Assembly: GCA_964387845.1 (NCBI GenBank) | Contig: CAYLXA010000013.1 | Coordinates: 25,521 to 89,520 of the forward strand | From: an uncultured bacterium | GTDB lineage: Bacteria > Omnitrophota > Omnitrophia > Omnitrophales > Abzuiibacteriaceae | Length of the DNA: 64,000 bases | Reading direction: 5' to 3' | Part shown: one piece after another, positions 2,280-64,000 of the stretch | Position numbering within the stretch: position 1 is the first letter of the stretch | How the letters are laid out: every line of letters starts with the position of its first letter | The notes under the pieces: model-generated | Database searches by the model: none | Told to the model about the DNA's origin: nothing | The model's input: only the letters and a program-made list of their open reading frames with translations | Program-made: the position numbers and the translations under genes

Positions 2280-3686
2280 TTAAAACGTTTCCGGAGCGCC
2301 CGGCATTAAATGAAATTGGGCGTACAAAATAGTCATCGCAACGATGATTGTGATAGTTGATACGACAACACCCGGTTTTATCCAATCCATAAATTTAATA
2401 CTTTGCCCGGTTTCTTTTTCAAGCATACCCATGGCCACAATGTTTGCCGTACTGCCGACCACCGTGAGGTTTCCGTACATGGTGCCGCCGAACAGCATGG
2501 CCCACCAAAACGGAAAGATGTAAACGCCGATTTTTTCGATATCCGCCAGGATCGGGATAAATGTGGCAACCGCCAATACGTTATCCATAAATCCGGTCAA
2601 TAAACAAATTGCAGCCGTAAAAATGTTAAGCAAAAACGTATGGCCGCCGCCGGCGACGCTGATCATGCCTTGCGCGATTTGTTCGGTAACGCCTACGTAT
2701 TTTAAAGTTCCGACGGATGAGAAAAGCGCCAAAAAGAAGGTGAGTGTCCACCAATCTACGCGGCGCATAAAGAATTCACGCGCTTCTCCTGCTTTTAAGA
2801 AAATAGAAACGGCGCCAAAAAAGAGAGCGGTCCCAAGCAGCATCGAATTTTTTTCAAGATGGAGCAATTCCTCAATCGTGTGATGCAGCACAAGGCAGAT
2901 GACGGTGCTCAAAAACAGGATCCAGCACTTCTGAATCCCTGCATTTGTGTAATGCACATGCTTTAATTCGTTCATTTCGCCGCGCTGTTTCTTCATGGCA
3001 TCCTGGAGCTTTTGGATGTCCTTCTTAAAAATGAAGAGGGATAGTCCGATGGTGATCGTTAAAGTCACGACGGAAATAGGCGCTGCCCAGCGGAGAAAAT
3101 CGGCAAACGTAAGGCCGGATCTCATCGCAATCATGACGCCGATCGGGTTGCCGACCGGAGTTGCGCTGGAGCCGATATTGGTTGCAAACACAATCATCAA
3201 AAGAAAGGGAATTGGGTTCACTTTATAGCGCTTGGTGATGTGAAACATGGTGGACATCATGAAAAGGATGGAAGTGACCTCATCCACCAGCGCGGCTGAC
3301 GAAGCGCCTAAGACCATTAAAACCGCCATCATTAGGAATGCTTTTTCGCCGATCCGGTCCACGACTTTCGCAACAACGTACTCAAAAAAGTGGTTTTCTT
3401 CCAAATAACCGATGATTGTCATCATGCCAACTAAAAACAGAATGATGTCTAATCCGGCAAATTCGATGATGTGCGGAGTATCGAGGAGATTGGTGGCCAA
3501 AAGGATTGCAATTCCGGAAAATGCGAACGCAAGCCTGAACTTCCAGTAGAAAAGTGTACCGAGCAGGATTAATAAGAAAATCAGCGTGGCGATGATTTGC
3601 TTTTGGGAAAAAGCAAAATGAGAGAGCGCCAAAGCGGTTCCGATTAAAATTCCGAGTATGATTAAAGGTGTTTTAAGCTTTTCCAT
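2280..3686 (-). CDS. Anion permease of the ArsB/NhaD (DASS/SLC13-like) superfamily
   Basis: The 468-aa polytopic membrane protein has two halves, each with a GSSATPVGNP-type hairpin motif typical of this transporter superfamily. Confidence 0.55.
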   Translation of the reverse strand: MEKLKTPLIILGILIGTALALSHFAFSQKQIIATLIFLLILLGTLFYWKFRLAFAFSGIAILLATNLLDTPHIIEFAGLDIILFLVGMMTIIGYLEENHFFEYVVAKVVDRIGEKAFLMMAVLMVLGASSAALVDEVTSILFMMSTMFHITKRYKVNPIPFLLMIVFATNIGSSATPVGNPIGVMIAMRSGLTFADFLRWAAPISVVTLTITIGLSLFIFKKDIQKLQDAMKKQRGEMNELKHVHYTNAGIQKCWILFLSTVICLVLHHTIEELLHLEKNSMLLGTALFFGAVSIFLKAGEAREFFMRRVDWWTLTFFLALFSSVGTLKYVGVTEQIAQGMISVAGGGHTFLLNIFTAAICLLTGFMDNVLAVATFIPILADIEKIGVYIFPFWWAMLFGGTMYGNLTVVGSTANIVAMGMLEKETGQSIKFMDWIKPGVVVSTITIIVAMTILYAQFHLMPGAPETF

Positions 3687-8334: not shown

Positions 8335-9816
8335 TTATACCTCCTGGAATTCAAATTTCAGGAGCTGTGATAAAATTTTCCCGGTCCAACGGTAAATATT
8401 GTTCTGGGCGACGATTTCGCGCATTTTACGCATGCGTTTCTCTTTTTCCTCCTGCGGCATCGCGAACGCTTGCTCAATCGCATCTGCAAATTGCTCCGAA
8501 TCGTAAGGATTGATCAAAATCGCATCCGACAACTCTCTGGATGCGCCTGTGAATTTTGACAGGATCAGAGCACCGCCCAAATCCTCGCGCGCCGCAACAA
8601 ATTCCTTTGAAACCAAATTCATTCCGTCGTGAAGCGAGCTCACAACACAAACATCCGCCATCCGGTAAAGGGCTAGAATGTCGTCATAACTCACATAAGT
8701 ACGCTTTAATACGATAGGTGCCCACGAATCAGTAGAATGTTTCCAGTTAATTTCCTCTACAAGCCCGTTAATTTCATCATTCAGATGTTTATAGCGAGGA
8801 ATGTGAATTCTTGAGATTTGGCCTATTTGAAGGAAAATAAATTTTTCTTTGTATTGAGGATATTTTTCAAGAAACCGGTCTATCGCGCGCAGTCTTTCGG
8901 GAATGCCCTTAGTGTAATCAATCCGGTCTACGCCGACGATTAATTTCAAATCACCGATTGAATACTCATCACGCAAGTTCTGAATCCGTGACCGGGTTTT
9001 GTCCGACGATGCTTGTTCCGAAATGGCTTCGAAATCAACCGAAATCGGAAATGCGCGTATCAGTGCTTCATGATTTTGAAACGAAACCGAGTCACGTTCA
9101 CGGTCAATCCGGCTTTCAACCTCGCGGTCAACCGTTGCGAAAAAATTATCCATGTGGTAACGAATCTGAAATCCGACAAGGTCGCACGATAAGAATCCTT
9201 CCAAAATTTCCTGTTTTTGCGGGCAAATCCTAAATACTTCCGGATTCGGCCACGGAATATGCCAGAAAATCGATGTGATGATATTCAAACGCCCGGAATC
9301 ACGTAGATATTTGGCAACGAGTGCGAGCTGAAAATCCTGGATCCAGACAAAAGCTTTTTCATTTCCGACTTCTGCTAAAACCGCATCCGCGAACATTTTG
9401 TTTACCTTCTGATAGGATTTCCAGTCGGCGTCGTTAAATAACGGCCTCGTATAAGCCACATGGCACAATGGCCAAAGCCCCTCATTGGAAAAACCGTAAT
9501 AGTATTTGTCACGGTCTTCTTTGCTGAGAAACATGCGTTTTAACTGGTAAGAAGGATTGTGCGGCGGGAGCATGACTTTTGAATTTGCATCGACCGCTTT
9601 TTTGTCGTGCTCACTTGAGGAGGCAGCAATCCAAGTTCCTTGGACGGCTTCCATGACGGGGCTAAGGGCGGTTACGAGGCCGCCCGGTTCGCGCTGACAG
9701 ATTAATTTACCGCTTTGCAGAACATGCTTGAACGGCTGCCGATTGGAGACTACGATGAGTTTATAGTCGGACAAACGTTCTTGTATGGTTTTTTGAAGCG
9801 TTTCTTTGGTCCACAT
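8335..9816 (-). CDS. otsA: Alpha,alpha-trehalose-phosphate synthase (GT20)
   Basis: The 493-aa protein has IVVSNRQP and GGLVTAL and a GT20-like layout. It abuts otsB. Confidence 0.9.
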   Translation of the reverse strand: MWTKETLQKTIQERLSDYKLIVVSNRQPFKHVLQSGKLICQREPGGLVTALSPVMEAVQGTWIAASSSEHDKKAVDANSKVMLPPHNPSYQLKRMFLSKEDRDKYYYGFSNEGLWPLCHVAYTRPLFNDADWKSYQKVNKMFADAVLAEVGNEKAFVWIQDFQLALVAKYLRDSGRLNIITSIFWHIPWPNPEVFRICPQKQEILEGFLSCDLVGFQIRYHMDNFFATVDREVESRIDRERDSVSFQNHEALIRAFPISVDFEAISEQASSDKTRSRIQNLRDEYSIGDLKLIVGVDRIDYTKGIPERLRAIDRFLEKYPQYKEKFIFLQIGQISRIHIPRYKHLNDEINGLVEEINWKHSTDSWAPIVLKRTYVSYDDILALYRMADVCVVSSLHDGMNLVSKEFVAAREDLGGALILSKFTGASRELSDAILINPYDSEQFADAIEQAFAMPQEEKEKRMRKMREIVAQNNIYRWTGKILSQLLKFEFQEV

Positions 9817-9825
9817 GATTTTGCC

Positions 9826-9872
9826 TTAAAATAGAAACCGCCACCTGAATTTTTCATTCAGATGGCGGCCCG
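9826..9872 (-). terminator. Hairpin plus U-tract between nuoN and otsA. It may be an intrinsic terminator or attenuator, read on the minus strand.
   Basis: Arms of 13-15 bp (aaccgccacctgaat / attcagatggcgg, one mismatch) with a 5-nt loop. The minus-strand RNA continues UUUCUAUUUU. The hairpin ends only ~20 nt before the otsA start. Confidence 0.4.
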
Positions 9873-10020
9873 GCCATCACTTCAAATTTAACCTCCGGAA
9901 TATTTCCGGACCCTTTGGCGTAGAAAAGATTTTAAACCGTTTTTAAAATAAGGGCAAGGTTTTTATCCGAGTTTAGGAGAAATTTTCTACGAATTTTATT
10001 TTCGACGGGTGAAAAATATT

Positions 10021-17490: not shown

Positions 17491-18654
17491 TTATCTATCA
17501 ACTTCCCCTAAAACGATATCAACACTTCCAAGAATAATGACAGCATCCGCCACTTTGTGGCCGAGGCACATATCTTCTAAAATCGTCAAATTAACAAAGC
17601 TGGGCGCACGGACGTGATAACGATATGGTTTGTTCGTGCCGTCGGAAACCAGATAAAATCCAAGCTCGCCCTTAGGCGCTTCGATGCGGCTGTAAACATC
17701 GCCTTTCGGCGGCTTGAAGTTACGCGGCGTTTTTCCGATTGTGGCACCTTGCTTTGAAATATGCTCACCGGCCGGAATTTCTTTTACGGCCTGCTCCAGA
17801 ATCTTGATACTTTCACGCATTTCCAAAATACGGACATAATAACGGTCATACACATCGCCATGGTCGCCTAGCGGCACGCGGAACTTGAAACGATTATAAA
17901 TTCCGTAACCATCAACTTTGCGAATGTCGTAATCAACACCGGCCGCGCGAAGCATGGGGCCTGTGACACCTGCATTAATTGCCAAATCTTTGGGTAAAAC
18001 ACCGACGCCTTGCGTGCGGGACATTAAAATTTCGTTTTCGGAAAGCAATTTTTCGAATTCATCGAGAAACTTCGGATATTTTTGGATAACTTCTTTCACG
18101 CGAGGCAAAAAATCCTCCGTCACATCCAGTTTTTGTCCGCCGAAGCGGAAATAATTACACATCATGCGTGAGCCGGCAACGCTTTCGAATAAATCGAGAA
18201 TTTTTTCGCGCTCGCGGAATGCATAAAGCACGGGCGTAAAGAATGCGCCCAAGTCATTCAGCAAAAATCCGACGAGGAGCGTGTGATTCACAAGCCGCGT
18301 GAGTTCCGCCATGATGATTCGAATATACTGTGCGCGCTCTGAAACCTCGATTTTGGCGAGTTTTTCAACCGCCATTGCGTAAGAAAAATTGTTGGTCATC
18401 GAGCAGAGATAATCCAAGCGGTCCGTAAAGGGCATCGAGGCCAAGTAAGTCATATTTTCGGCGAGTTTTTCGTGATTGCGGTGCAGATAGCCCATGAAAG
18501 GCTTCAGCTGAACAATGTTTTCGCCGTCGAGTTTAATATCCATCCGGAACACGCCGTGCGTGGAAGGGTGCTGCGGCCCGAGGCTGACTTCGAGCGTTTG
18601 CGTGTCGAGCGTTTTATCGAGTAAATTATGTTCCATATTTATTTTCGTCGTCAT
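17491..18654 (-). CDS. nuoD: NADH-quinone oxidoreductase subunit D (49 kDa)
   Basis: The 387-aa protein has a typical NuoD N-terminus and the C-terminal LGEVDR. Confidence 0.9.
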
Positions 18655-18659
18655 TCTGA

Positions 18660-18710
18660 GGCGCAGCCGAAGAATCTAGATCCTTCGCTTCGCTCAGGAT
18701 GACGATTAAT
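18660..18710. repeat. Palindromic element between nuoC and nuoD, related to the elements at 32738 and 33528 (family G)
   Basis: tcgtcattctgaggcgcagccgaagaatctagatccttcgcttcgctcaggatgacga has a 13-bp outer stem with one mismatch. It shares the gtcatt..gaggcg / cgaag.aatct motifs with the repeats flanking 32893..33522. Confidence 0.55.
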
Positions 18711-18712
18711 TC

Positions 18713-19225
18713 TTATCCTGTCGCCTTCTGGATGACTTCGCTTTGATCATCCGACACATAGTCTTTGCGCATCGGATAAAACTGAAAACCTTCCCACATC
18801 AAAATTCTGCGTAAGTCCGGATGTCCTTCGAATTGAATCCCGAACAAATCGTACGCTTCGCGCTCTTGAAACTCGGCACTCCGCCAAACAGGTGTCACGG
18901 ACGGAATTTTCCCCGTTTCGCGGTCGGTACGGACTTTGATGGCGAGCGGGCCATGTTTTTTTGTCATGGAATACAAATGATAAACCGCTTCAAGATGCGT
19001 GGTGTAGTCAACGCCCGAAACGCTTGAAAGGAAATTAAGCTCATAATCGGGATTTCCCTTAAGAAACATGGCCACTTCAAGCCATTTTTCTTTGGGAACT
19101 ATCAAACTATCCGCTTCAATCGTAATTTGCGAAGACGTACGTGATTCGATGTCTTTTTTAATTTCTTCTAGGGATTTCACGAATACACCGTAATGTCTTT
19201 GCGGGAATTGGCCTGCGGATTCCAA
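18713..19225 (-). CDS. nuoC: NADH-quinone oxidoreductase subunit C (30 kDa)
   Basis: The 170-aa protein has the NuoC-like motifs EAVYHL and [18 protein letters not shown]. Confidence 0.85.
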
Positions 19226-19854
19226 ATTTCAGGATTGTACTTCGGGATTAAACCGTTCGGCCCGTATTCCGGAACCGGAAATTCACGTTTCAGGCCTTTT
19301 TGATACCACTCGGTTTTTTCAATTTCTTGCGAATCGATTTTCTCTTGAAGCTTCATTAAACCATGCAAGAGCGCTTCCGGGCGCGGCGGGCAACCGGGCA
19401 GGTGAACATCGACCGGAATGTAACGATCAATTCCTTTTAACACATTGTATCCGTCGATAAACGGGCCGCCCGAAATGGAACAAGCGCCCATCGTGATGCA
19501 ATATTTCGGCTCCGGCATTTGATTGTAGAGACGAACCACATTCGGCGCCATTTTTTTGGTGACTGTGCCGGCGATGATGATGAGGTCAGCTTGACGCGGC
19601 GAAGCGCGGAAAAGTCCCGCGCCGAATCGATCGATGTCGTAGCGTGCGCAGGCCGTGGCGATCATTTCAATCGCGCAGCAAGCAAGTCCGAACTGGAGCG
19701 GCCAAATAGAAGAGCGGCGGCCCCAATTGTAAAGCGCTTCAAGGGGCGTAATGTAAACGCCCTTTTTTGATAGTTCGTTTTTTAAACCGTCTTCAACTTG
19801 ATTAACATTCGGTGTGAAAGCCATTATTTCCATTCCAGCGCGTGTTTGCGCCAT
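19177..19854 (-). CDS. nuoB: NADH-quinone oxidoreductase subunit B (20 kDa, N2 cluster)
   Basis: The protein has GLACCAIEM and [10 protein letters not shown]. The start is more likely the internal Met near 19824-19833, because the longest ORF overlaps nuoA. Confidence 0.85.
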
Positions 19855-20219
19855 GCGTAGGCAAGCCCGAGAGCAAGAATTGCGATGAAAATTAACATTT
19901 CAATAAAAGCAAAAAGCCCGAGCTGGTTGTAAGCAACCGCCCAAGGGTAGATAAAGACGGTTTCGACATCGAAAATCACGAAAATCAGCGCGAAGATGTA
20001 ATACTGGACCTTAAATTGAATCCATGCGTCACCCTTGGCTTCAAGGCCGCATTCGTAAGAGGCATTTTTTATCTGATTGGGTTTCTTGGGTGCGACGATT
20101 TTGGCTAGTATTATAGGAAGCGCTGGGAAAACAATGGCGACCAGAAGAAACACACCCAGAAACCAATAATTGTATAAATACGAATCGATATTGTTCATCT
20201 GAAATAGGGAATTGGACAA
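19824..20219 (-). CDS. nuoA: NADH-quinone oxidoreductase subunit A
   Basis: The 131-aa protein has three TM helices and is the first gene of the operon. Confidence 0.85.
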
Positions 20220-20370: not shown

Positions 20371-23300
20371 TTAAACCGAGAGAGAAATTGTGGTTGGTGC
20401 TTTCTCGACTAAAATTTCAAAAAGGATTTCGAAAAATGTTTTCACCGGATTTCCGGAAGGTTTTGGGCCGCCGCGCAAACGGATCATTTCGCCGTTGAAT
20501 TTGTCCAATTGCTGTAATGACGCAACGCCGATTTGCAGAGGGGCGACACGGGTTGAGCTTTGGATTAAAGACTTGGCAGTTGAAATCGGTTCATTCTGAA
20601 CTACCGCAGATTCATCAAGCGTTTCCAAACCTCCGGTTATTGTAGCAATTGCACCGGAAACATTTGCTTTTGTATTGGAGGCAGCCTGTCGCGGAACATT
20701 GCCGCTGCCGGATGCTGCCGCAGGCTGTGTTCCAGGGCTTGGGTTATTATAGGGCACAATCACGCCGACAATTCCCGGCGTATAATATCCGCCTGTGTTT
20801 TGAGGATTTGCCGTCTCTTGCGGTGAACCGTTTTCCGGCCCGCCTTCGTCCGGATTGGAATCCGGAGGATTCTGGGTTTCACCGTTGGTAGCGGGGCTTT
20901 CCGGGATAACTGCAAATGTTGCTTCTATCGTATGATCAGAAGTGACGTTATTAAATGTATAACTCGAAACCGCGCCGACGGAGGTTGAATTCACAAGTAC
21001 ATCTTGGATTTCGTAGCGCGAATCGGGCGTAATTGTAAAAGTCGCATTGTCACCTTCGTTGACCACAACATCTCCAACCGGTGAAATTTGGCCGCCTTCC
21101 GAAGCGCTTGCGGTAATTGTGAAGGCTAGTGGATTACATGGAGCGCCTTCCGGGCAAATACACATATCGTTTGCTTCATCGCATTCTTCACCGGTGTCAC
21201 AGGCAGAAGTTCCGGATTGGCATCCTGCTGTTGCATTACAAGTCTCGCTTCCGTTGCAGAATAATCCATCCGAACAAATCGAATCATCCGGCGTATTGGC
21301 GCAGCCGTTTACGGAATCGCAGGAATCATTTGTGCAGGAGACGCCATCATCACACACAAGCGGTGCGCTCGCCTGACAACCTAAGCCGGGGTCACAGGTC
21401 TCCGTACCGTTACACACATTGGCGTCATCGCACACAAGCGGTGTTCCGGCCTGACAGGTATTATTTACACAAGCTTCAGCGCCGTTACATAAATTTCCGT
21501 CGCCACACTCCGAATCACTGATACAAGCAAAACACTGATCATTCGGTTCATCACAATGGTCCGGATCCGAGCAAGGCTCGGTTCCGTTTTGGCAAATTCC
21601 GGCAATACAAATTTCGGCTCCTGTGCAGAATAACCCGTCAGAACAGCTCATACCATCCACAACCGGGGTTGATTCGCAGCCCGTTGCAGGATCACAAGCT
21701 TCCGCGGTGCATGGATTGCCGTCATCACAGACAAGCGGCGCGCCTGTTTGACAACCCAGCGTTGAGTCGCAACTTTCAGGGCCGTTACAGACATTTCCGT
21801 CATCACATGTTAGCGGTATCCCGGATTGGCAACCCAAGGCAGAATCGCAGGTTTCTGTTCCGTTGCAGATGTTGCCATCATCGCAAACGAGAGAAGTTCC
21901 GGCTGTACAGATGCCTGCCTGGCAAGTTTCCGTTCCATTACAAGCGTTGCTGTCATCACAGTCGGAGTCATTAAGGCATCCTGTGCATTGATCGTTTGTT
22001 TCGTCGCAGATCAGGTTTGGTCCTGAGCAAGGTGCCGGATTTGATTGGCAACCCAGAGCGGCGTTGCAGATTTCAGCTCCCGTGCAAAATAATCCGTCCG
22101 AGCAAACCGAATTGTCTGTTGTATGCACACATCCGCTCAAAGAATCGCAGGAATCATTCGTACAAGCAATTCCATCATCACAATTAAGAGGAACACCCGA
22201 TAAACAACCCAAAGTTGGATCGCAAGATTCAATACCGTTACACGCATCGGCGTCTCCGCAGTTTAATGGCGCACCCAACTGACAGCCAAGGACAGAATCA
22301 CAGGTTTCTGTTCCGTTGCAGAGGTTGCCGTCATCGCAAGCAAGCGGAGTTCCTGGCTGGCATGAACCCGAGACGCAGGTTTCTGTGCCATTACAGGTAT
22401 TGTTGTCTGAGCAATTTGCATCGGTTAAACATGCTTGCACTACGATAGTGATTGCCGGTGAAAATCCGCTGCCGAAACCGCCATCCTGAGGCGGCTGGGA
22501 CCAAGCCTGTACACGGGCGTAGTAAGTTCCGGTTTGTGAAATTACAAACGGTTCAAAAATTCCCGATGGCCAGCGTTCATCGATATTCTGTACAAAATTT
22601 GGATCCGGCGACAATTGTACTTGATAGATCGCAGCGCCCGGAACCGCGTCCCATTCCAAATTGAATGCTCCTAAATTCGGCGAAGGCGGATTTGCGCTCA
22701 CGCCGGGCGGCGCCGAGAAATTCACGGAAATCATAATATCGTCGGAACCTGTGAGCATCGAGTCATCTGCGGTCAACCGTAATTGATAAGAACCCGGATG
22801 CGAAAATGTAACGGACGTGCTGGTATTGTTCGGCGGATTGAATGTGGCGATACCGCCGGAGCTGGTTACTTGCGACCAGCTGACCGTCACCGCACCGGGC
22901 GGATTCGGCAGACCATCATCCGTCACGCCGCCGTTAATGATTGCCGAAGTGCCGAAAGCGACGGTTTGATCATTTCCAAGGTCAACGGTTGGATTTTCAT
23001 TCTGTAAAGTCGATTGGTACTCATACGGACCGATGTCGGTTTGCGCATCGCGCGGGCGGTCTCTGACGTCGGTATGCAAATTCGGCATCGGAAATCCCGC
23101 GTCAATGGCGGCTGATTCGCTGTGCAAATCGTAATCGTTGACCGAAGGAGCTTCTGAAAAATTAACCATCAACACATCCGTTGCGGTTTGCAGGCTCGAA
23201 TATGTGTCGACGCCGTTGAGAAATGACCGCCAGTTGTTGAAATTGGTTATGGGATCTGGTGACGACCACTCGATCCCGCCGGCTGCGAAATACTGACAGT

Positions 23301-26300
23301 CGATATAGATATTGTTGTTGTGCTGAATCGCCGCAAAATCTGTGTAGTTGAAGTAAGCTGCGCAATAAGCCGGCGCCGCTTCTTTTTTGTAAACGATGTT
23401 GTTTAAGAACTGAATGTTGGGGGCGCTTGACGGACTTGCCTCTGCGCCGATGAGGACCACGTAACTATCGTATCCGTTGCCGATCAGTAAATTGTTATAG
23501 AATCGGCCGTTTTCTTGGACGTTGTCCAAAGACAAAGCTTTTCCGATCGATGCGTCTACCACGTTATTAAAGAATTCAATGTTGGAACCTATGCCGCCGA
23601 CCGTGCCGTTGATGTAATTGTTGTAATAGCGGCTGTTACGGTTGAGTTGAAGTGCGCCCGAAAGGCCGGCGTTGATCGTTATGTTGTTCGAAAATAAATT
23701 GCCAGCAGCATGTCCATAAATCACATGGCCGTATCGGTCATAGGTGTATTGCCAAGGATCTGATATTTCTGAAAGGCATATCTCAACAGGATAGCTGGAG
23801 TCGTCGGCAATGACGAGAGGCCCGATATTTTCAAATCGGTTGTTCTGATAAGTAAAATAGTTATCAATTGTCGGGTGGGGCGTTAGATCCGCGATACCCA
23901 TGCTATTAAGGCTTCTGAGAGTACTGTCATAAACTTCGATATATTGACCGGGATTTCCGCCGGGCAGCGGGTTCATTTTAATACCTTCCTCGCCATGCTG
24001 AATGGTTAAGCCGATGAAACGGATGTAGGATGCTGACGTGTAAAACCGGTTTTGTCCGGGAAAGTAAAACGAATGTTCTGACGGGTTGGTCCCGGACGGG
24101 AGGCGAATGTATAAGCGCCCACTTGTGCAATCGATAAAATAAGCGTTGAATGAAGTATTGGAATTCGGGATTGTTAATACATCAAGCATATCTTGATGAC
24201 GGAGCATGCGGCTGAAGGGCCGTTCAAGATCCATGATTATGCCTCTCGGATAATTTCCTTCACCGCCGTTTGCGTTAGGATCGTATGTTCCAAGCGATGT
24301 ATCAGTCCACCAGATTGAATAATTGCCCGCGTTTTCTGAAAATGTCCAGTTTGAAGGAATGCTTGCTCCCGAATCAATGACCGGTGTTTCGCCGGGATAG
24401 TTTCGAATGGTTACCCACTGATTCGGCGCTCCGCCGCGATCCATAAGGTTGTAGGATCCAAACGGCTGTGTTCCACCGCGGATGTAAACCGTATCTCCAG
24501 GATTGAGCTGATCAAACGTTGCGCTTACATTGCAAATCGGCTGGGCAAGAGATCCGGGGCCGCTGTTGCTGCACGCCGGATTATTTGCATCAACTACGTA
24601 GTAATTTCCCGCGCAATCGTTTGAACAATCAAAATGGCTTTCACGCCGGAGATCACAGTAACCGTCACCGCAAGTCCCGGCGCAATCCTGCGAGCAGGTT
24701 TGAACCGTCTCTGGCGCTTCACAAATACCGTCGCCGCAAAGTGCGGTAGTGGTAACCGAAAAAGACGCTTCAATGGTGTGGGTTGTTTGTACGTTGTTAA
24801 ACGTATAACTGGAAATAGCGCCTTGCGAAACGCTGTCGACGAGCACATCCGTAATTTCGTAACCGATATTGGGCGTGATTGTAAATATTTGATCGCTGCC
24901 TTCGGCAACATTGACCGTGCCGTTCGGTACAATGTAGCCGCCGTTATTTGCTGTTGCATTAATTGAATGTGAAGGGCCTTCTACTTGGCAGATTGAGCTG
25001 CAGCCGTCGCCGCTTGCCGTATTGCCGTCGTCGCAAGTTTCATTGCCGACGACTAAACCGTCACCGCAAATTGGATTACATTCTGGGTTGCTGCCGGGAT
25101 TTACAGTGTCAACGGAACAGGTCCAACCGGCCTCGTAATAAATCGTGTCTTGCATAATGGCCGAAATGTTTCCAACACTATCAATCAATCTGGCAAACAC
25201 TGTCCGTTCACCGCTCGGCCCGCTGGCAAGTTTCCAGCGCATGACGTTTTCATACGGAGTCGGGTCACTCCAAATTGTTCCGTTATTAGAAAATATTACG
25301 GATGTGATCGAGGATCCGCCTGAGTCAGAAACCGTTAAGTAGATATGCGAGTCTAACGAATAAGTAACCGCCGCGTCATTCTCAATCAGTATTGTTCCGC
25401 TCGGCGGTTCAAGATCAACGACAAACTGAACCACATTGGAATATTCGGTTGGGTTCCGCCCAAGTTGAAACGGCGGCACGGGCGGTGATTCCCATCCGCG
25501 CACGCGGGCGTGATAAGTATTTGAGGTGCTCAACGAAACAGGAACAAACGTATCGTTTGACCAAAGAGTCGTAACATTGGAAGCAAAATTAGGGTCGGTT
25601 GAAATTTTGATTTCGTAAGCATTTGAGCCCAGCGACGGAGTCCAAGCGAGATTAAAATCGCCGTCATTGGGCGTTGCGGGTTGCGCCAGAACAGGCTGGA
25701 CGGCGGCTTGTGACGCAAAAGCCCCAATGTGGCAGCCTGTGCTTCCGGTTGGCGTGACGGAAACATTAAAACCGTTTTCGATGACATTAAGGCACATGCC
25801 CGAGTGGCTTGCAGGACTGCCCGGTTGAAGATTGAAATCAGCGTTTGCGAGATCCACAAATTGCGGATCTGCTTGAATATTTGAATCTGCCAGATTGAAG
25901 TTATTAAAATCAGCTACTGAGTAAAGCCCGCTCACCACGATTTGCCCGTTTCCGCCGCCATCTTTTAAAGCTCTAATAACCGAAGTTTCGTGGGCCGGAT
26001 TAGACGAGTAAATCAAATTATTTCGAATGTCATCGCCGTATCCGCCAAAATTCGTATCAACATATTCCAGCGGATCGTAATGAAGCATTAGTAGCTCAGC
26101 ATTGAAAGTATTGCCGAAAGAGACTGGTGAAACATAATCATGGTTGGCATCCATCAAAATATTGTTCCAGATGCGGACATTATATATAGCATTCAGGGCG
26201 TCCGGAGGATTCCAGTTGAAATTGGCAGTATAAATTCCACGCGGCCCCGGACTGTGAATGGTATTGTTAAAGATGTATACGTCCTGAATTAAATTTTGGT

Positions 26301-29300
26301 CAGCAACATTTGCAACGAGCGTGATTCCGGTAGAATCGTTAAATCCGTCATAAATAACGTTATTGTAAATGTAAAGTCGTTCTGTTTTTCCGGGCCCGAT
26401 TTGAATTGCGCCGCCGCGGTGATTTGATTCTGAAGGGAATTGGTTGGTTCCAAAAAACGTGTTATTTCGAATAATCGTATTTTGTGAAATGCCGGGATTT
26501 CCGTCAATTGAACCGATGCCGAATGAAGTGTGAAACCGATTTCGGAATGTATTATTCTCTATTAAAACATTTTCAGAATTCCGGAAACCGACAGTTCCAT
26601 GTCCGCAATCACCGAACCAGCTGTTTTTAATAGTCGTATTTCTTGCATCATCGCCAACAATTCCGTCAACGCCGCCGCCGTTCATCAGAAGCAAGCTCGG
26701 GCTTGCCGTGCAATTTAAATTTAAATTGTCAATCTCTACTCCATCGGTATCGAGAACTTTAATTCCGTTTGCCCAAGGTTCCGCGTAACTTTGCTCCGGC
26801 GGCCAGCGGTGGCCAATGCCGATATCATCATTTCCGGTGAATGAAGTGACTGATATATTTTTGAGCTTGACGCCATTTGACCGTTGAATGCCAAGCACGT
26901 AGGGTGCATACAATCTTCCGCCTGCGGTATCGATATGCCCAATGAAATTTAATGAATCAAAAGTAATGTCGTTTGCCAAATAAGTTGTCAGCATATATAT
27001 GCCGATATTGCTGCCTTGAGCCGTCATACTGCTGCCGTGTAAATTCACGGTTTCATTCGGATAGCCGCGAATCGTAATCGGGTTTGCCTCAGTTCCCGAA
27101 CTTCGGATGACAATAAAATTGTTTGCATCAATGTAGGGGAGGAAGTAATCGCCGCCCCGAATGTAAACCGTATCGCCGATATTTAATTTTTCATAAGGAG
27201 ACGTTTCACGAAGCGCTCTCGGCGTGCACCACGGCGTATTGGGATCGAGTGCTTGAGTTCTTGAGTAACTGTCCGAACAGTCACAATTATTTTGATCAAT
27301 GAAAAGCATATTAGTTCCGTTCGCAAGCTCTTGCGGGTCGGAACTGCCGACCGTGCATCCGCCTTCGGATTGGCTTGTATATTCAAATGCGCCGGGCGCG
27401 CAACTTCCGCTTTCAGGACGCGGATTTCCGTCAAAATCCACCGCAACTTCCGGAAGACAAGGGACCGAGCCGATCGCAGGGCTGTCCTGCTGTAAATGAA
27501 AATCGCCGATACCAGCGTTTACGAAAAGCGGGTTGCCGTCTACGTTGTCTTCGGCGAATGACAGTGCATTAAATTCGTCGATGGTGTAGTGATAACGCTG
27601 CGTGTTCCGATTGTTGGTGCTTTGGACCGGGTCTTCGGCAGGATTGAGTTCTTTGACCCAGTTATTTTCAAACACATTTCCATAGCCATTTTGGCCTTCA
27701 AAATCCCAGCCGCCCAGCCGGATTTCGCCGTGAATTTGTTCTCCTTCGCCCGTATAAGTTTGAATTCCGTAGAAAATATTATTTTTGATTTGATTATTAT
27801 TGGCCCAATTATTTTGGCCGAAAACGCCGTTATTGCCGACGCTCATGTTGGCGTAGCCTGTGTTGTAAACCGTGTTGTGAAAGATTTTATTGTTGTTGGC
27901 TTCAAAGAATCCGGTGCCGGGCCCGTTTTGATCCTGAGAATTGGCAATCGAAATTCCGTTTCCATTTAATGCGCCGTTGTAAATCACATTGTTATAAATC
28001 AGGTTGTCACTGGCCCCCAAAATCTGAATGCTGTTTGCGCGAAGCGTGGTCTCCGAAGGAATTGAATTGTAAGTATGAAACGTGTTATTCCGGATGATGT
28101 TATCGTGAGAACCGACACCAACGGCGATATTGGTATGGAGCGTATTTGAAAAATCATTATTTTGCACCAAAACGTCATGCGTATTAAAACGAAGCACAAG
28201 TAGAATGTGGCCGCAGTCACGGAATGTATTGTTTTCGATTAAGCCGCCCGAGACATAATCCATCATGATGCCATCGCCGGAATAGCGGTTGTCCGGGTTA
28301 ATTTGATCGTTAACTTGCATGCATCGGAAAAAACTATTCTTCACTGTGATGTTGCTTGCATTATCAAATTCGATGCCGTTGCCATAAGGTGCATTAGGAG
28401 CGCGATCGTCGTAGCCGATGTCATCGGTGCCTTTGAAGTCAACAACCGAAATGCTGTCAAATACAATATCGCTGCTTCCGCTGACAACCTCAATGACTCG
28501 CGGGCCATACAATTTTCCGTTTGGGTTACCAACATCCACGTTGCCGACAAAATGAAGATTTTCAAATGTGATGAAATGAACGTCATTCAGAACAAATGTG
28601 CGTTCGAACGCTGTGTGCGCACCGCGGATGACTGCCGTTTCGCCGGGATATGAAGTGAATGTAATTCGGTTGCTATCGCTTGTGCCCGATGAATTGATTC
28701 TGACTGTGGTATCGACGATCGGATATTCACCGCCGCGAATATAAACGGTGTCGCCTGCGTTTAATTTGTGATTGGGCCGGTTTTCATGAAAGCCAAGAGG
28801 CGAACACCAGGGTGTATAAGGATCGCGTGCCGCATACCGGTCTCCAGCGTCGCTGCAGTTGCAATTATTTTTATCCACAAAGAGAACATTGGCGCCGTTG
28901 GCAAGCCCTTGCGGGTCAGAGCTTCCGGCTATGCAGCCTCCGAGCTCTGATGGGTGATTGTTGGGATCGTTGGGATTAAATCCGCCTGCAAATTCTTCAC
29001 CGTCTGAGTAGCCGTCACCGTCTGTGTCCGGATTATTAGGATCCGTGCCGTTTTGAAATTCCTGCAGATTGATAAATTGATCATTGTCCGGGTCATCCGT
29101 GCCGTTTTGATTGAGATTGCCGAAGTGCAGCATTTCCCAAACGTCCGGCAAACCGTCTTGATCTGTATCTGAAGTGTCGTTGTAAACATACTCGAATGGA
29201 CCGATGTCGCAGGCAGCGCCTTGCGGCCGGATATGGTTGTCAAAATCAAAATCTACTTCAGGAACACAGATTCCGGCATCCACTGCCGAGCTTTGCTCGG

Positions 29301-31257
29301 TTGGGTGAAAATCGTGATTCTGCGGATCGACAAATAAAGGCACGGTTCCGAGATTATCTACGATTGTTCCAGTCCCAAAAAGGTTATCCAGATTTTGAAG
29401 TGTGTAATCAAAGTGTATATACGGAGGATTGGAAGTTCCAAAATTTCGCGTAGACATCACAAATCCGCCCGGGTTGTCAGTCACCAGCAAATTATTTTTG
29501 ATTTCATTTCCGTAACCCTGATTGGGTTCGAAGCCATAAATATCAAAGAAAATAGGACGGTTGAGATAATACGCATATGTCTGAGAGTAAGGTCCGTCGG
29601 CAGCTCCGCCGGTTTTAAGCTGGATGATATTGTTTTGCACTTTGTTGTCATGCACATAATTGGTATTTGGCAACAGGACGTCATTTATATCCGGACGATT
29701 ATTAAACTCAATCGCTTTTACCATAGAGTTGTGCGTGGTTGCTGTCGGGTCGTCCATATAAATTAAATTATGATAAACCTGGTTCCGGTCGGAATTCGAA
29801 TCGCCGTTTCCGATAAAAGTAATGCCGTGCAAGGAACGCCGCCTCGGCTCGTCAGCGTCGTAGTAAATGATGTTGTTGTGGATTTGGCTGTCGGAAGCCG
29901 AGAGCATTTCAATGGCATGGCCGCCTTGGTTTCCCGTGGTCGGGTACACATTCCAGTTGTAAATCAAATTATTTTTAATAGTCATTTGACTGCCGCCGAA
30001 TGCAAAGCAGGTATGAAGTTCGTTATTACAGGAATTATTTTCAACCGTTATGTTGTCAGACCATCTAACCGTTAAGCTGATATGTCCGCAATTTCCAAAA
30101 GTACTATTTTTTACGCTGCCACCGGATACGCGATTAAATTGAATCCCGTCGCCCGAGAAGCGAAAATCTTCGGTCGGGCGCTCAGAGTATTCAGAGCAGC
30201 TGACAGATGCATTCTCGATTTTAATATTAGAAACGTCATCAAATTGTATTGCACTCCCCCAAGTTTCATAGTCTTCCCCGGTTTTCCGCCACCTAAAGCC
30301 GTAACCGATGTCATTGAGGCTTTGAAAATTAAGAACGCTTGTATCTAAAATTTGAATATCTTGGGCTGGATTTCCAACAGTCCCGCTAATTCTCAACGGA
30401 TTCGGCATGTAAAGTCTGCCTTCCGGCGTATCTTCATAGGCAATAAAATTAAGCCCCTTTAACGTAATGTAGCTGGCGTTATTCAAGATCAGAATCCACG
30501 AATAATTATAAGAGCCGCCGCGTATGGTAACCGGCTCATAACCACTCGGTTCAGTTTGAGAGGGATATGCTTGGATCGTGATCCGCTGCGCAGGCCCGGC
30601 GCCGGACGTATTAACGCTCGCATTATGTTCCGTATAGTCGCCGCGGCGAATGAAGACTGTATCGCCCGGATTCAATTTATGGTTTGGCCTGTATTCGGTT
30701 AACCCGCGCAAACTACACCACGGTGTTGCGGGATTTAAGGCTTCCGGGCGTTCACGGTTATCGCGGCAATTACAATTGCTCTGATCGACAAACAGAACAT
30801 TCAGCCCATTTGCCAAATTCAAAGGATCTGTATTGTTGTCACACTGACGAAGTGGAATACTGCTTGCGTTGGTCGGGCTACTGCCTAATCTGATCTCGTC
30901 GTCATCATTGACGCCATCTCCGTCTGTGTCATATCCGATGTTTCCGTTGCCCACAGTTGGATTGGTATTAAAAGCAACTTCCCGAAAGTTGGGCACTCCG
31001 TCTCTATCCGGATCGTCGTATTGATCATAACTTGTGATATCGCCAAAGTATTGAATTTCCCAATCATCTGAAAGGCCATCAAAATCAGTGTCAATTTCAC
31101 CGGCGGCAATTTGGGGAAGGGGAATGCCCATGAAGACGAGCGTGAAAATAATGATCAAAGAAACAAAATCAGAAAGAAATTTGGAAACAACTTTCTTGAA
31201 CTGCCGGGATTTTATTTTTTTTTTGTGTGATTTATCTGATTCGGAGCTTCGTCCCAT
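20371..31257 (-). CDS. Giant secreted multidomain surface protein (3628 aa). It has TSP3-like Ca-binding repeats, four pectate-lyase-type beta-helix modules, FN3/PKD-like domains, InlB-B-type repeats, a Myxococcus-type Cys-rich repeat and a Dictyostelium/EGF-like Cys-repeat region.
   Basis: A single uninterrupted ORF with an N-terminal signal/anchor ([18 protein letters not shown]). It has DxDxDGxxDxxE motifs and repeated NxxxN/right-handed beta-helix signatures. The module-start motif LANGxNVLF(V/I)DxxNC(N/D)C...TPWC...GDTVYIRGG occurs three times. A CGDGxxxxxExCDDGNxxSGDGCSxxC unit is present. About 20 CxxGxxxxxCDDGNxCTxDxC-like units lie between ~22435 and ~21130. Confidence 0.85.
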   Translation of the reverse strand: [3628 protein letters not shown]

Positions 31258-55944: not shown

Positions 55945-56572
55945 GTTGTTTTCGAGATCTGAAAGAGGCTTGAGTTTAATCGAGCTCATGGTCGCGATCA
56001 GCATTGTGCCGACCGTGATTTTCGCGTCATCTAATTTTCAGCTCTACTCCAGCAAAATCATGAACAATACCTACGACCGTGGTATGCGCTTGTCCGAACA
56101 AATTGTTATATTTCAATACCTAGAACGGACGATGATCAATGGCTCTTCTGCTATTACTCCAGTCGATTATCAAGGGTATCAAGCTTATACCGCGTGCCCA
56201 AATTCTAGTGATTTTAGTTGGAATAATAGATTGGTTATCAATTTGCCTACTAGTAGCGGTGCTGGCCAACCACCGGTTATTTATGATTTTCTGAAAAATT
56301 GTGGGGACACCGCTGCTCTTCTGCAAGTTACCTATGACATGAACGGAGATAGCCTGATTACGGCAAGCGAATTTACCAAAATTTCGTATTTTGGATCTGT
56401 TGATTATCCGGATGAAACTCCAGGTTTTACGGGAAGCAACAACGTGCCGTTTGTTTATGATACAGACAATAAAAAAGTTACAGTGAGACTTGGATTTAAG
56501 TCAACCGATCCAAATAGCCCGAAAATTACGGTTCCTTTGGAAATTAAATTGAGCGGAGGAAGCGGAACATGA
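55910..56572 (+). CDS. Minor pilin (PilW-like; prepilin N-terminal methylation domain)
   Basis: ERGL-SLIELMVAISIV with E+5. The 220-aa protein overlaps its neighbours in the way minor-pilin operons do. Confidence 0.6.
   Translation: MKKRSLLFWLNKLFSRSERGLSLIELMVAISIVPTVIFASSNFQLYSSKIMNNTYDRGMRLSEQIVIFQYLERTMINGSSAITPVDYQGYQAYTACPNSSDFSWNNRLVINLPTSSGAGQPPVIYDFLKNCGDTAALLQVTYDMNGDSLITASEFTKISYFGSVDYPDETPGFTGSNNVPFVYDTDNKKVTVRLGFKSTDPNSPKITVPLEIKLSGGSGT

Positions 56573-63437: not shown

Positions 63438-64000
<563 letters not shown>

What the first reader, a model, noticed from the sequence alone, without database searches (positions are those of the whole stretch)
25750..30850. Internal triplication of a ~520-aa beta-helix module inside the giant gene
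Three consecutive modules start with nearly the same signature. Copy 1, near 30850, reads LANGLNVLFVDQSNCNCRDNRERPEALNPATPWCSLRG...GDTVFIRRGDY. Copy 2, near 28945, reads LANGANVLFVDKNNCNCSDAGDRYAARDPYTPWCSPLG...GDTVYIRGGEY. Copy 3, near 27370, reads LANGTNMLFIDQNNCDCSDSYSRTQALDPNTPWCTPRA...GDTVYIRGGDY.

The modules are separated by Asp-rich calcium-binding linkers, which indicates that the gene grew by tandem duplication. The conserved NCxC...WC cysteines at each module start suggest a disulfide-stabilised cap.
Basis: seen in the sequence. Interest (0 to 1): 0.5.

Follow-up and report, generated by a model that had tools for sequence, protein, structure and literature searches.

The report
Three old beta-helix modules, one gene
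A 3,628-residue secreted protein of an Omnitrophota bacterium carries three full-length, anciently diverged copies of a sugar-enzyme-like beta-helix module plus a fourth distant one; this is real, but it is an ordinary architecture for long surface proteins of this phylum.

Summary

- Asp-rich TSP3 linkers precede M1 and M2. M3 follows M2 after about 7 residues.
- A fourth, distant Pel9A-like beta-helix module (aa 2205-2755) was missed.
- The copies are ancient. There is no DNA similarity, dS is saturated and dN is 0.61-0.72.
- M2 and M3 are closer to single-module proteins of Patescibacteria, archaea and a Rickettsiales-labelled MAG than to their sister modules (clade support 292-300/300). 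M1 has no such supported partner. Monophyly of the in-gene copies got 0/300.
- The same M1..M2-M3 order occurs in the syntenic ortholog.
- Whether the copies arose by in-gene tandem duplication or by fusion of diverged paralogs is unresolved.
- The disulfide-cap idea is supported by paired cysteine gain and loss.

The likely role is a surface protein with several glycan-acting modules. This is an inference.

The parts
20371..31257 (-). Giant ORF, 3628 aa, the secreted multi-domain protein that carries the modules
   Evidence: ORF list and translation. The N-terminus has a charged segment, a hydrophobic segment and an AxA-like site (read from the sequence). The syntenic ortholog P0028 lies between AhpC and nuoA in L002.
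30853..31092 (-). TSP3-a: Asp-rich linker with three DxDxDGxxDxxE motifs (aa 56, 82, 110) preceding M1
   Evidence: Regex. Pfam TSP3_bac 33.2 bits against cut-off 25. Paralogous to the linker before M2 (56-200~697-837, 47% identity, 3e-33).
29158..30852 (-). Module M1 (aa 136-700): N-cap, beta-helix and choice-of-anchor-Q C-terminal subdomain
   Evidence: Self-BLAST and MAFFT. Pfam Beta_helix 30.6 bits against 25.9. NCBIfam choice_anch_Q best stretch aa 650-690. 61% identical to the ortholog module in P0028.
28942..29157 (-). TSP3-b: Asp-rich linker between M1 and M2 with three DxDxDGxxDxxE motifs (aa 697, 722, 744)
   Evidence: Pfam TSP3_bac at aa 744-765, 26.8 bits against 25.
27364..28941 (-). 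Module M2 (aa 773-1298)
25696..27363 (-). Module M3 (aa 1299-1854), which abuts M2 with no Asp-rich linker
   Evidence: Beta_helix 28.8 bits. Junction sequence ...GAFEYTSQSEGGCTVGSSDPQELANG. Groups with P0030 in 298-300/300 bootstraps.
30634..30843 (-). M1 N-terminal cap (aa 139-208): C...LANG..NCNC...PWC...GDTVFIRRGDY
   Evidence: Cys co-occurrence.
28723..28935 (-). M2 N-terminal cap (aa 775-845) with four Cys (775, 799, 801, 818)
   Evidence: pLDDT is 91-95 over M2 residues 11-50, which hold three of the four cap Cys; the first Cys lies in the 79 block.
27145..27357 (-). M3 N-terminal cap (aa 1301-1371)
   Evidence: This is the only stretch with detectable DNA similarity to another module (M2/M3, first 218 nt, 66%).
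22993..24645 (-). Module M4 (aa 2205-2755): a fourth, distantly related (Pel9A-like) beta-helix that shares the cap, the first turns and the C-terminal motif
   Evidence: BLAST 153-263~2218-2313 (6e-8) and 645-690~2704-2747 (1e-5). It has its own homologs, P0291 and P0292, which carry PF22842. The AF2 model is low-confidence (pLDDT 58), but all its Foldseek hits are beta-helix GH/PL enzymes.

Best explanation
The region encodes three colinear paralogous modules (M1, M2, M3) inside a 3,628-aa secreted protein of an Omnitrophota bacterium. Each module consists of a cysteine-bonded N-terminal cap, a right-handed parallel beta-helix and a choice-of-anchor-Q C-terminal subdomain. A fourth, distantly related beta-helix (M4) lies downstream.

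Shown here:
- The copies are homologous along their whole length.
- They are ancient. They belong to three separate subfamilies, and the M2 and M3 subfamilies have single-module relatives in other phyla and in archaea.
- The M1..M2-M3 order is conserved in the syntenic ortholog of a related genome, while the rest of the architecture is reshuffled.

Inferred:
- The gene is a concatenation of functionally diverged glycan-binding or glycan-cleaving units. It was built either by an old duplication or by fusion and shuffling of already diverged paralogs.
- The units are displayed outside the cell. TSP3 repeats act as calcium-rigidified spacers, and disulfides stabilise each module.
- All three modules keep the family's conserved polar cluster (D in DDIG, R, H in CGH, H in LHT). 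Each is therefore probably functional, and the modules probably differ in substrate specificity. This parallels the multi-A-module AlgE epimerases and the multi-catalytic polysaccharide depolymerases.
For: - Full-length colinear similarity with E down to 1e-42, and 33-39% identity over about 500 aa.
- Pfam Beta_helix above cut-off for each module. Choice-of-anchor-Q 80.5 bits in 3 stretches.
- AF2 model of M2 with pLDDT 86.9 and pTM 0.91, all-beta.
- Age: no tandem or direct DNA repeats. dS is undefined or saturated. dN is 0.61-0.72 between paralogs against 0.16-0.31 between orthologs.
- Subfamilies: body identity of M2 is 50-52% to P0001/P0004 against 32-33% to M1/M3. Body identity of M3 is 42% to P0030 and 39% to P0005 against 28-32% to M1/M2. 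The NJ clades M2+P0001-4 (292-297/300) and M3+P0030 (298-300/300) are well supported, and monophyly of the Omnitrophota modules appears in 0/300.
- The ortholog P0028 is syntenic (AhpC | giant | nuoA-D). It has M1, M2 and M3 in the same order, an extra insert between M1 and M2, and no M4.
- P0029 has another N-terminal domain followed by TSP3, M2 and a different second module.
- Conserved polar cluster present in M1-M3. Cysteine pair co-variation.
- The organism is Omnitrophota, from the NuoD hits.
- A literature survey found that repeated Pfam domains occur in 65% of long Omnitrophota proteins and reasons that the copies have diverged by accumulated substitutions (bioRxiv 10.64898/2026.06.07.730766).
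Against: - No biochemical evidence exists for any member of this subfamily. Enzymatic activity as opposed to pure binding or adhesin function is not decided.
- The AlgE-type catalytic motif (DPH) is absent.
- The tree is neighbour-joining on corrected p-distances, not maximum likelihood. The deep branching among the three subfamilies is unresolved (28% support), so the order and place of the duplications cannot be read from it.
- M1 has no supported partner outside Omnitrophota.
- The single-module relatives could descend from an old multi-module gene by fission and transfer. In that case an in-gene tandem origin would still be correct, only very old.
- Disulfide geometry could not be measured, because model coordinates are not returned.
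- The M4 model is of low confidence.
Confidence: 0.72

Rival explanations
1. The gene grew by in-place tandem triplication of one [linker + module] unit, and the three copies then diverged within this lineage.
For: - The three modules are adjacent, colinear and in the same orientation.
- M1 and M2 share the whole [3xTSP3 + module] unit (56-200~697-837, 47% identity).
- M2 and M3 abut directly, and that junction is conserved in three Omnitrophota proteins.
- The M2 and M3 caps still show 66% DNA identity over 218 nt.
Against: - Monophyly of the in-gene copies appears in 0/300 bootstraps. M2 and M3 each group with single-module proteins from other phyla or domains at 292-300/300.
- The bodies of the modules are only 28-33% identical to each other, against 39-52% to the outside proteins that group with M2 and M3.
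- M2-type and M3-type single-module genes sit at separate loci in contigs of one archaeal-looking assembly.
- The 3xTSP3 + module unit also exists in the single-module protein P0006.
- Architecture around the modules differs between syntenic orthologs.

A very old tandem event followed by export of single modules is not excluded.
Confidence: 0.2
2. The modules are non-enzymatic. The protein is an adhesin or structural surface fibre, in which the beta-helices serve only as rigid binding or spacer rods, as in the PfbA, Vag8 or Pmp type of protein.
For: - The protein also has many binding-type domains: InlB B-repeat, PKD, Fn3-like and Cys-rich repeats.
- No known catalytic motif was identified.
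Against: - Most of the top structural and sequence-profile matches are glycoside hydrolases, lyases or epimerases.
- A cluster of D, R, H, H is conserved in 24-28 of 28 family modules and in all of M1-M3. This is more typical of an active or ligand site than of a spacer.
Confidence: 0.3
3. Artefact. The apparent repeat comes from mis-assembly or collapse, or from chance similarity of Asn-rich low-complexity beta-helix turns.
For: The modules are Asn-rich (65-71 N per module), and beta-helix turns are internally repetitive.
Against: - The copies are about 49% identical at DNA level, too diverged to confuse an assembler.
- The same three modules occur in the same order in independently assembled JGI and Logan contigs of a related genome.
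- The similarity is colinear from cap to C-terminal subdomain, with E-values down to 1e-42 under composition-based statistics.
Confidence: 0.01

Closest known systems
AlgE-type secreted mannuronan C-5 epimerases of Azotobacter vinelandii. They are built from A-modules (beta-helix) and Ca-binding R-modules, and AlgE1 and AlgE3 carry two A-modules. The domain make-up is from my own knowledge of Ertesvag et al.
   Same: - Both are secreted proteins with several paralogous beta-helix modules in one chain, interspersed with calcium-binding repeat modules.
   Different: - Only 16% sequence identity.
- The epimerase active-site motif YG(F/I)DPH(D/E) is absent, and no DPH occurs anywhere in the protein.
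- The Ca-binding spacers here are TSP3 repeats, not RTX-like R-modules.
- The modules here have a disulfide-bonded cap and a choice-of-anchor-Q C-terminal subdomain.
- There are three modules plus a fourth of another subfamily.
Pfam Beta_helix (PF13229) / pectin-lyase-fold carbohydrate-active enzymes: GH136 lacto-N-biosidase, GH120 XylC, GH87, PL6, PL9 Pel9A and phage tailspike depolymerases
   Same: - Same fold, with Pfam and profile matches.
- The GDTVYIRGGxY first-turn motif aligns with the N-terminus of XylC.
- Homologs carry PF22842 Pel9A-like_beta_helix.
   Different: - No assignment to any CAZy family is possible from these data. Identities are 11-20%.
- Catalytic residues of those families were not mapped.
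- Nearly all full-length relatives found are single-module; only P0028 and P0029 are multi-module.
Uncharacterised single-module 'right-handed parallel beta-helix repeat-containing proteins' of Patescibacteria (Ca. Nomurabacteria, P0003), of archaeal contigs (P0004, P0005) and of a Rickettsiales-labelled MAG (P0030)
   Same: - Same subfamily: cap, helix and C-terminal subdomain over the full length.
- 48-52% identity to M2.
- 39-42% body identity of P0005 and P0030 to M3.
- The same cysteine pairs.
   Different: - They have one module per protein, followed by a DUF4215-type Cys-rich region and a C-terminal membrane anchor.
- They are not concatenated and are not in a giant gene.
Giant proteins of Omnitrophota: Archaeovorins and Dockerin-type proteins (West-Roberts et al., bioRxiv 10.1101/2023.11.21.568195), and long multi-repeat proteins of the phylum (bioRxiv 10.64898/2026.06.07.730766)
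   Same: - Same phylum.
- A long extracellular protein with repeated domains and bacterial TSP3 repeats.
- The survey reports that repeated Pfam domains are the rule in long proteins of the phylum and that substitutions have accumulated between copies.
   Different: - 3,628 aa, not 30,000 aa or more.
- No HEAT, SecA or dockerin domains were found by Pfam.
- The antiparallel beta-helix tube described there is a different structure from the parallel beta-helix here.

Membership tests
Right-handed parallel beta-helix (Pfam Beta_helix PF13229, pectin-lyase fold) | Profile match above the gathering score in each module | tested here: met
   M1 30.6, M2 35.8 and M3 28.8 bits against cut-off 25.9. 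Whole protein 77.3 bits in 3 stretches. M4 has no Pfam hit.
Right-handed parallel beta-helix (Pfam Beta_helix PF13229, pectin-lyase fold) | Three-dimensional fold of stacked three-strand turns that matches solved beta-helices | tested here: met
   [not shown]
NCBIfam choice-of-anchor Q domain (NF041518) | Profile match above cut-off at the C-terminal end of each module | tested here: met
   80.5 bits against 25, in 3 stretches, best at aa 650-690. The motif P.F(V).....DF.L...SPA......C....DF.....R......C..G.FE is present in M1-M3.
Bacterial thrombospondin type 3 repeat (PF18884), calcium-binding | DxDxDGxxDxxE motif and a profile match above cut-off | tested here: met
   Six motifs at aa 56, 82, 110, 697, 722 and 744. 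TSP3_bac 26.8 and 33.2 bits against 25. None lies between M2 and M3. Calcium binding itself cannot be tested with these tools.
AlgE/AlgG mannuronan C-5 epimerases | Catalytic YG(F/I)DPH(D/E) / DPHD motif (from knowledge of the family) | tested here: not met
   [not shown]
CAZy families GH136, GH120, GH87, PL6 and PL9 | Conservation of the family-specific catalytic residues and metal sites | not tested
   Only fold-level and weak profile matches were obtained. Residue-level superposition is not available, because coordinates are not returned.
Omnitrophota giant proteins (Archaeovorin or Dockerin-type) | 30,000 aa or more, with HEAT/SecA-helicase content (Archaeovorin) or dockerin/EF-hand repeats (Dockerin-type) | tested here: not met
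   3,628 aa. Pfam finds none of these domains. The definitions are taken from bioRxiv 10.1101/2023.11.21.568195.
Product of recent in-gene tandem duplication | The copies are each other's closest relatives, with residual nucleotide similarity | tested here: not met
   0/300 bootstraps give monophyly of the in-gene copies. TRF finds nothing. blastn finds only the cap-coding 218 nt at 66%. dS is saturated.

The most novel reading that the evidence does not exclude
The three modules are a toolkit of envelope-glycan-attacking or glycan-binding units that has moved horizontally between ultra-small, host-dependent lineages sharing groundwater-type habitats: Omnitrophota, Patescibacteria and small-genome archaea. 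In Omnitrophota, three specificities were fused into one secreted polypeptide, with the cap region homogenised by intragenic conversion. Two observations point to such conversion or shuffling. The P0028 M2 cap is 72% identical to M3 caps but 63% to its own ortholog's cap. The second module of P0029 has an M3-type cap (72%) on an unrelated body (28%). The concatenated gene would then be a marker of how these organisms attach to, or breach, different host surfaces.
Probability: 0.2. Interest if true: 0.55.

Novelty: new member of a known kind. Interest (0 to 1): 0.3.

Why it matters
This is a clean worked example of what an internal repeat in a long Omnitrophota surface protein really is. It is not a young tandem expansion. 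It is a string of anciently diverged beta-helix paralogs, two of which have closest relatives that are stand-alone genes in other phyla and in archaea.

It defines a small, uncharacterised beta-helix subfamily. Only 49 representative proteins score E<=1e-30 among 1.84 billion, and about 30 of them are full-length. The subfamily has a diagnosable two-disulfide cap, a conserved D/R/H/H cluster and a choice-of-anchor-Q end. This gives concrete targets for expression and glycan screening.

If the modules are glycanases of different specificity, the gene bears on how putatively host-dependent Omnitrophota interact with other cells. Otherwise the finding is an ordinary multi-domain surface protein.

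Tried and rejected
- Whole-protein self-BLAST returned only the identity hit. It was replaced by windowed queries against a masked subject.
- An exact look-up of the giant protein found nothing, so the source contig is not indexed under this exact product. A 100% NuoD match does exist on an NCBI 89.5-kb contig.
- The genome-contig scan with the cap patterns gave one relative only (L001, a Rickettsiales-labelled MAG). The source species is apparently not among the representative genomes.
- The cluster look-up gave no names.
- No paper mentions PDB 9rx2.
- TRF and the direct-repeat search in the gene found nothing for the modules. They found only short motif-coding matches and the younger Cys-rich repeats.
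- M4: Pfam finds nothing, and hhalign aligns only the cap. The AF2 model is weak (pLDDT 58), so the fourth-module call rests on its homologs' PF22842 annotation and on consistent but low-TM fold hits.
- The AlgE-type catalytic motif was sought and is absent.
- Mis-assembly and low-complexity explanations were considered and rejected.
- The Archaeovorin and Dockerin-type giant classes were considered and rejected.
- My first regex for the cap cysteines mislabelled positions. It was redone.
Full report
**The gene and where it sits**

The finding lies inside one ORF, window 20371..31257 on the minus strand, 3,628 aa.
- Directly downstream are nuoA, nuoB, nuoC, nuoD and nuoH (17491-20219 and beyond).
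- Upstream, on the other strand, are AhpC, a NUDIX protein, a urate-oxidase-N-like protein, a LacI regulator and a sulfite/nitrite reductase.
- A bacterial 16S gene begins at 63438.
- The NuoD protein has a 100% match on an NCBI contig, and its named relatives are all Candidatus Omnitrophica/Omnitrophota. The window is therefore chromosomal DNA of an Omnitrophota bacterium.
- The N-terminus of the giant protein has a charged stretch, a hydrophobic stretch and an AxA-like site (read from the sequence). The protein is most likely exported.

**Check of the observation**

- The three quoted signatures are present exactly. LANG starts at aa 148, 785 and 1311 (window 30816, 28905, 27327). GDTV[FY]IR starts at aa 198, 835 and 1361.
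- Windowed self-BLASTP against a masked copy gives an unbroken colinear chain of matches between aa 136-700 (M1), 773-1298 (M2) and 1299-1854 (M3), with E-values down to 9e-42.
- A MAFFT alignment gives 38.8%, 33.1% and 39.2% identity over about 500 residues.
- The start motif overstates the relatedness. The first 75 residues (the cap) are 53-63% identical and the remaining body 28-33%. The body similarity is nevertheless highly significant and colinear to the very end, through the P.FV..DF.L..SPA...C...DF...R...C..G.FE motif.

**What the modules are**

- Each module alone passes Pfam Beta_helix.
- The C-terminal 55-60 residues of each match NCBIfam choice-of-anchor Q (80.5 bits, 3 stretches).
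- An AlphaFold2 model of M2, built on a 15-sequence alignment, has mean pLDDT 86.9 and pTM 0.91. It consists of regular short strands.
- Foldseek ranks GH136 lacto-N-biosidases first.
- A sequence profile reaches PDB 9rx2 ("parallel beta-helix repeat protein", 6e-22), XylC, alginate lyase and GH136.
- The beta-helix call is therefore correct. The nearest characterised relatives are overwhelmingly glycan-acting enzymes, with a few adhesins (PfbA, Vag8).

**A fourth module**

Aa 2205-2755 (window 22993-24645) shares the cap, the GDTVYIRGG first turn and the C-terminal motif with M1-M3. Its middle is different. Its own homologs, P0291 and P0292 (31-34% identity by BLASTP), carry Pel9A-like_beta_helix, and P0291 also carries a peptidoglycan-binding domain. 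Its AF2 model is weak (pLDDT 58). Even so, every significant Foldseek hit is a beta-helix hydrolase or lyase. The protein thus has four beta-helix modules, three of one subfamily group and one distant.

**Linkers**

The motif DxDxDGxxDxxE occurs six times: at aa 56, 82 and 110 before M1, and at 697, 722 and 744 before M2. Pfam TSP3_bac scores above cut-off in both places. Between M2 and M3 there are only about seven residues and no Asp-rich stretch.

The unit [3xTSP3 + module] is shared by M1 and M2 (47% identity across linker and cap). The same unit also precedes the single module of P0006 and the M2-type module of P0029. It is therefore an old feature of the family and not evidence for duplication inside this gene.

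**Cysteines**

M1-M3 share eight cysteine positions. Across 29 full-length family modules:
- C207 and C243 (M2 numbering) are absent in exactly the same seven sequences.
- C495 and C514 are absent in exactly the same seven, a different set.
- C29 and C46 are lost together in four.

In a census of 44 caps:
- All 17 with NCxC...PxC also have a cysteine about 22-25 residues upstream.
- 14 of 20 with only the second cysteine lack that upstream cysteine.
- Seven lack all cap cysteines.

This pattern implies four disulfides. Two of them lie in the cap: the upstream Cys pairs with the first Cys of NCxC, and the second Cys of NCxC pairs with the Cys of PWC. Direct geometry could not be checked, because coordinates are not returned.

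**Age and origin of the copies**

- DNA level. TRF finds nothing in the gene. Direct-repeat search finds only short motif-coding matches for the modules. blastn finds only the first 218 nt of M2 and M3 at 66%.
- Substitution rates. In codon alignments, third-position identity between paralogs is 33-35%. dS is undefined (saturated) and dN is 0.61-0.72. Orthologous modules of the window and the related genome L002 have dN 0.16-0.31, while NuoD of the two genomes is 93% identical.
- Distribution of relatives. A profile search of 1.84 billion representative proteins found 49 hits at E<=1e-30. Only two are multi-module: P0028 with three modules and P0029 with two. About 30 others are full-length single-module proteins.
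- The ortholog. P0028 is the positional ortholog (NIR_SIR, LacI, urate-ox-N, NUDIX, AhpC | giant | nuoA-D...). It has M1, M2 and M3 in the same order, at 61%, 70% and 76% identity to the window's modules. The three modules therefore predate that species split.
- Body identities. The M2 body is 50-52% identical to the single-module proteins P0001 and P0004, but 32-33% to M1 and M3. The M3 body is 42% identical to P0030 and 39% to P0005, but 28-32% to M1 and M2.
- Tree. In neighbour-joining trees (503 columns, or 428 body-only columns) the clade M2+P0001-P0004 appears in 292-297 of 300 bootstraps. The clade M3+P0030 appears in 298-300. A clade of all Omnitrophota modules appears in 0 of 300. M1 groups only with its P0028 ortholog, so it has no supported partner outside the phylum.
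- Sources of the relatives.
  - P0003 is labelled Candidatus Nomurabacteria.
  - P0030 lies in a MAG labelled uncultured Rickettsiales.
  - P0004 (M2-type) and P0005 (M3-type) lie on two different contigs of one NCBI assembly. Their neighbours are an archaeal RecJ equivalog scoring above its cut-off and a Hel308-type helicase.

The three copies are therefore members of three old subfamilies, and the M2 and M3 subfamilies also exist as separate genes in distant organisms. The data do not tell whether they first arose as a tandem array that later shed modules, or as separate genes that were later fused.

Three observations make me lean towards shuffling or fusion:
- The syntenic orthologs differ in architecture. 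L002 has an extra 230-aa insert between M1 and M2, lacks M4 and the Cys-rich block, and has many more InlB B-repeats.
- P0029 has a different N-terminal domain and a different second module.
- Cap and body are mosaic. The second module of P0029 has an M3-type cap at 72% on a body at 28%. The P0028 M2 cap is closer to M3 caps than to its own ortholog's cap.

**How it most likely works (inference)**

The protein is exported and exposes four rigid beta-helix rods. TSP3 repeats act as calcium-stiffened spacers, and disulfides stabilise each rod.

All of M1-M3 keep the residues that are nearly invariant across the family and are not Asn-ladder or glycine positions: D in (D)DIG (28/28), a nearby R (24/28), H in CGH (27/28) and H in LHT (26/28). 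This argues that each module still has a functional ligand or active site.

By analogy with its structural neighbours, the most likely activity is binding and cleavage or modification of a polysaccharide, with the paralogs differing in specificity. The AlgE epimerase motif is absent, so this is not an AlgE family member. A pure adhesin role is the main rival.

**Comparison and novelty**

Multi-module beta-helix secreted proteins with calcium-binding spacers are known (the AlgE enzymes). A recent survey reports that repeated Pfam domains occur in 65% of long Omnitrophota proteins and argues that substitutions have accumulated between copies. The protein does not belong to the described Archaeovorin or Dockerin-type giant classes.

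It is a new member of a known kind. The subfamily itself is small and uncharacterised. The cross-domain distribution of its module subtypes is the one mildly surprising element.

**Verdict**

- It needs correction on three points: the linkers, the number of modules, and the tandem-duplication inference.
- Interest is modest.

Noticed in passing
window 21133-22437 (-), aa 2941-3375 of the giant ORF; also ORF 60375-63056 (+): A block of about 26-aa cysteine-rich repeats (Dicty_CTDC / DUF4215-like, 70 Cys in 435 aa) is organised in about 150-aa super-repeats that are 52-68% identical at protein level. The repeats are still visible at DNA level (families D1-D3), so this is a much younger expansion than the beta-helix modules. 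The same repeat type occurs in a separate 893-aa ORF at 60375-63056.
   Followed up: partly
window 24646-25707 and 20878-22992 (-): There are further internal duplications in the same gene. An Fn3-like domain occurs twice (aa 1856-1926 ~ 2853-2923, 42%). A [Cys-rich repeat + InlB B-repeat] unit also occurs twice (aa 2048-2182 ~ 3312-3464, 43-54%).
   Followed up: no
window 20374-20580 (-), last ~70 aa of the giant ORF: The C-terminal tail (…TRVAPLQIG.ASL.QL.KFN…IR.RGGP..SGNP..TFF.IL.EI…ISLSV) is conserved with the ortholog P0028 and weakly with P0029. It has no Pfam or NCBIfam match and could be an undescribed sorting or anchoring signal.
   Followed up: no
L002 8001-17546 compared with window 20371-31257: The syntenic ortholog in a closely related genome (NuoD 93% identical) is only 61-76% identical in the shared modules. 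It also has a different domain content: an extra insert between M1 and M2, no M4 and no Cys-rich block, and many more InlB B-repeats. The gene therefore evolves fast and is modularly plastic.
   Followed up: partly
P0028 aa 966-1040 and P0029 aa 1425-1500 (L002, L005): Cap and body have different histories. The P0028 M2 cap is 72% identical to M3-type caps but 63% to the window's M2 cap. The second module of P0029 has an M3-type cap (72%) on an unrelated body (28%). This suggests intragenic conversion or recombination at module starts.
   Followed up: partly
L004 6001-8415 and L007 5001-7226 (NCBI GCA_013328915.1): M3-type (P0005) and M2-type (P0004) single-module genes lie on two contigs of one assembly. 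Their neighbours are archaeal: a RecJ_archaeal equivalog above its cut-off, a Hel308-like helicase, SepF and KaiC-type proteins. M2 is about 50% identical to P0004, which implies cross-domain transfer of this module family.
   Followed up: partly
window 9860-9913 (-): An Rfam nhaA-I RNA (riboswitch class, 44.1 bits against 37) lies immediately upstream of a GT20 (trehalose-6-phosphate-synthase-type) ORF at 8335-9816.
   Followed up: no
window 56569-60375 (+): A 1,268-aa ORF has no Pfam match at E<=1e-5. It is directly followed by the Cys-rich-repeat ORF at 60375-63056.
   Followed up: no
window 63438-64000 (+): The 5' 541 positions of a bacterial 16S rRNA gene, cut by the window end.
   Followed up: no
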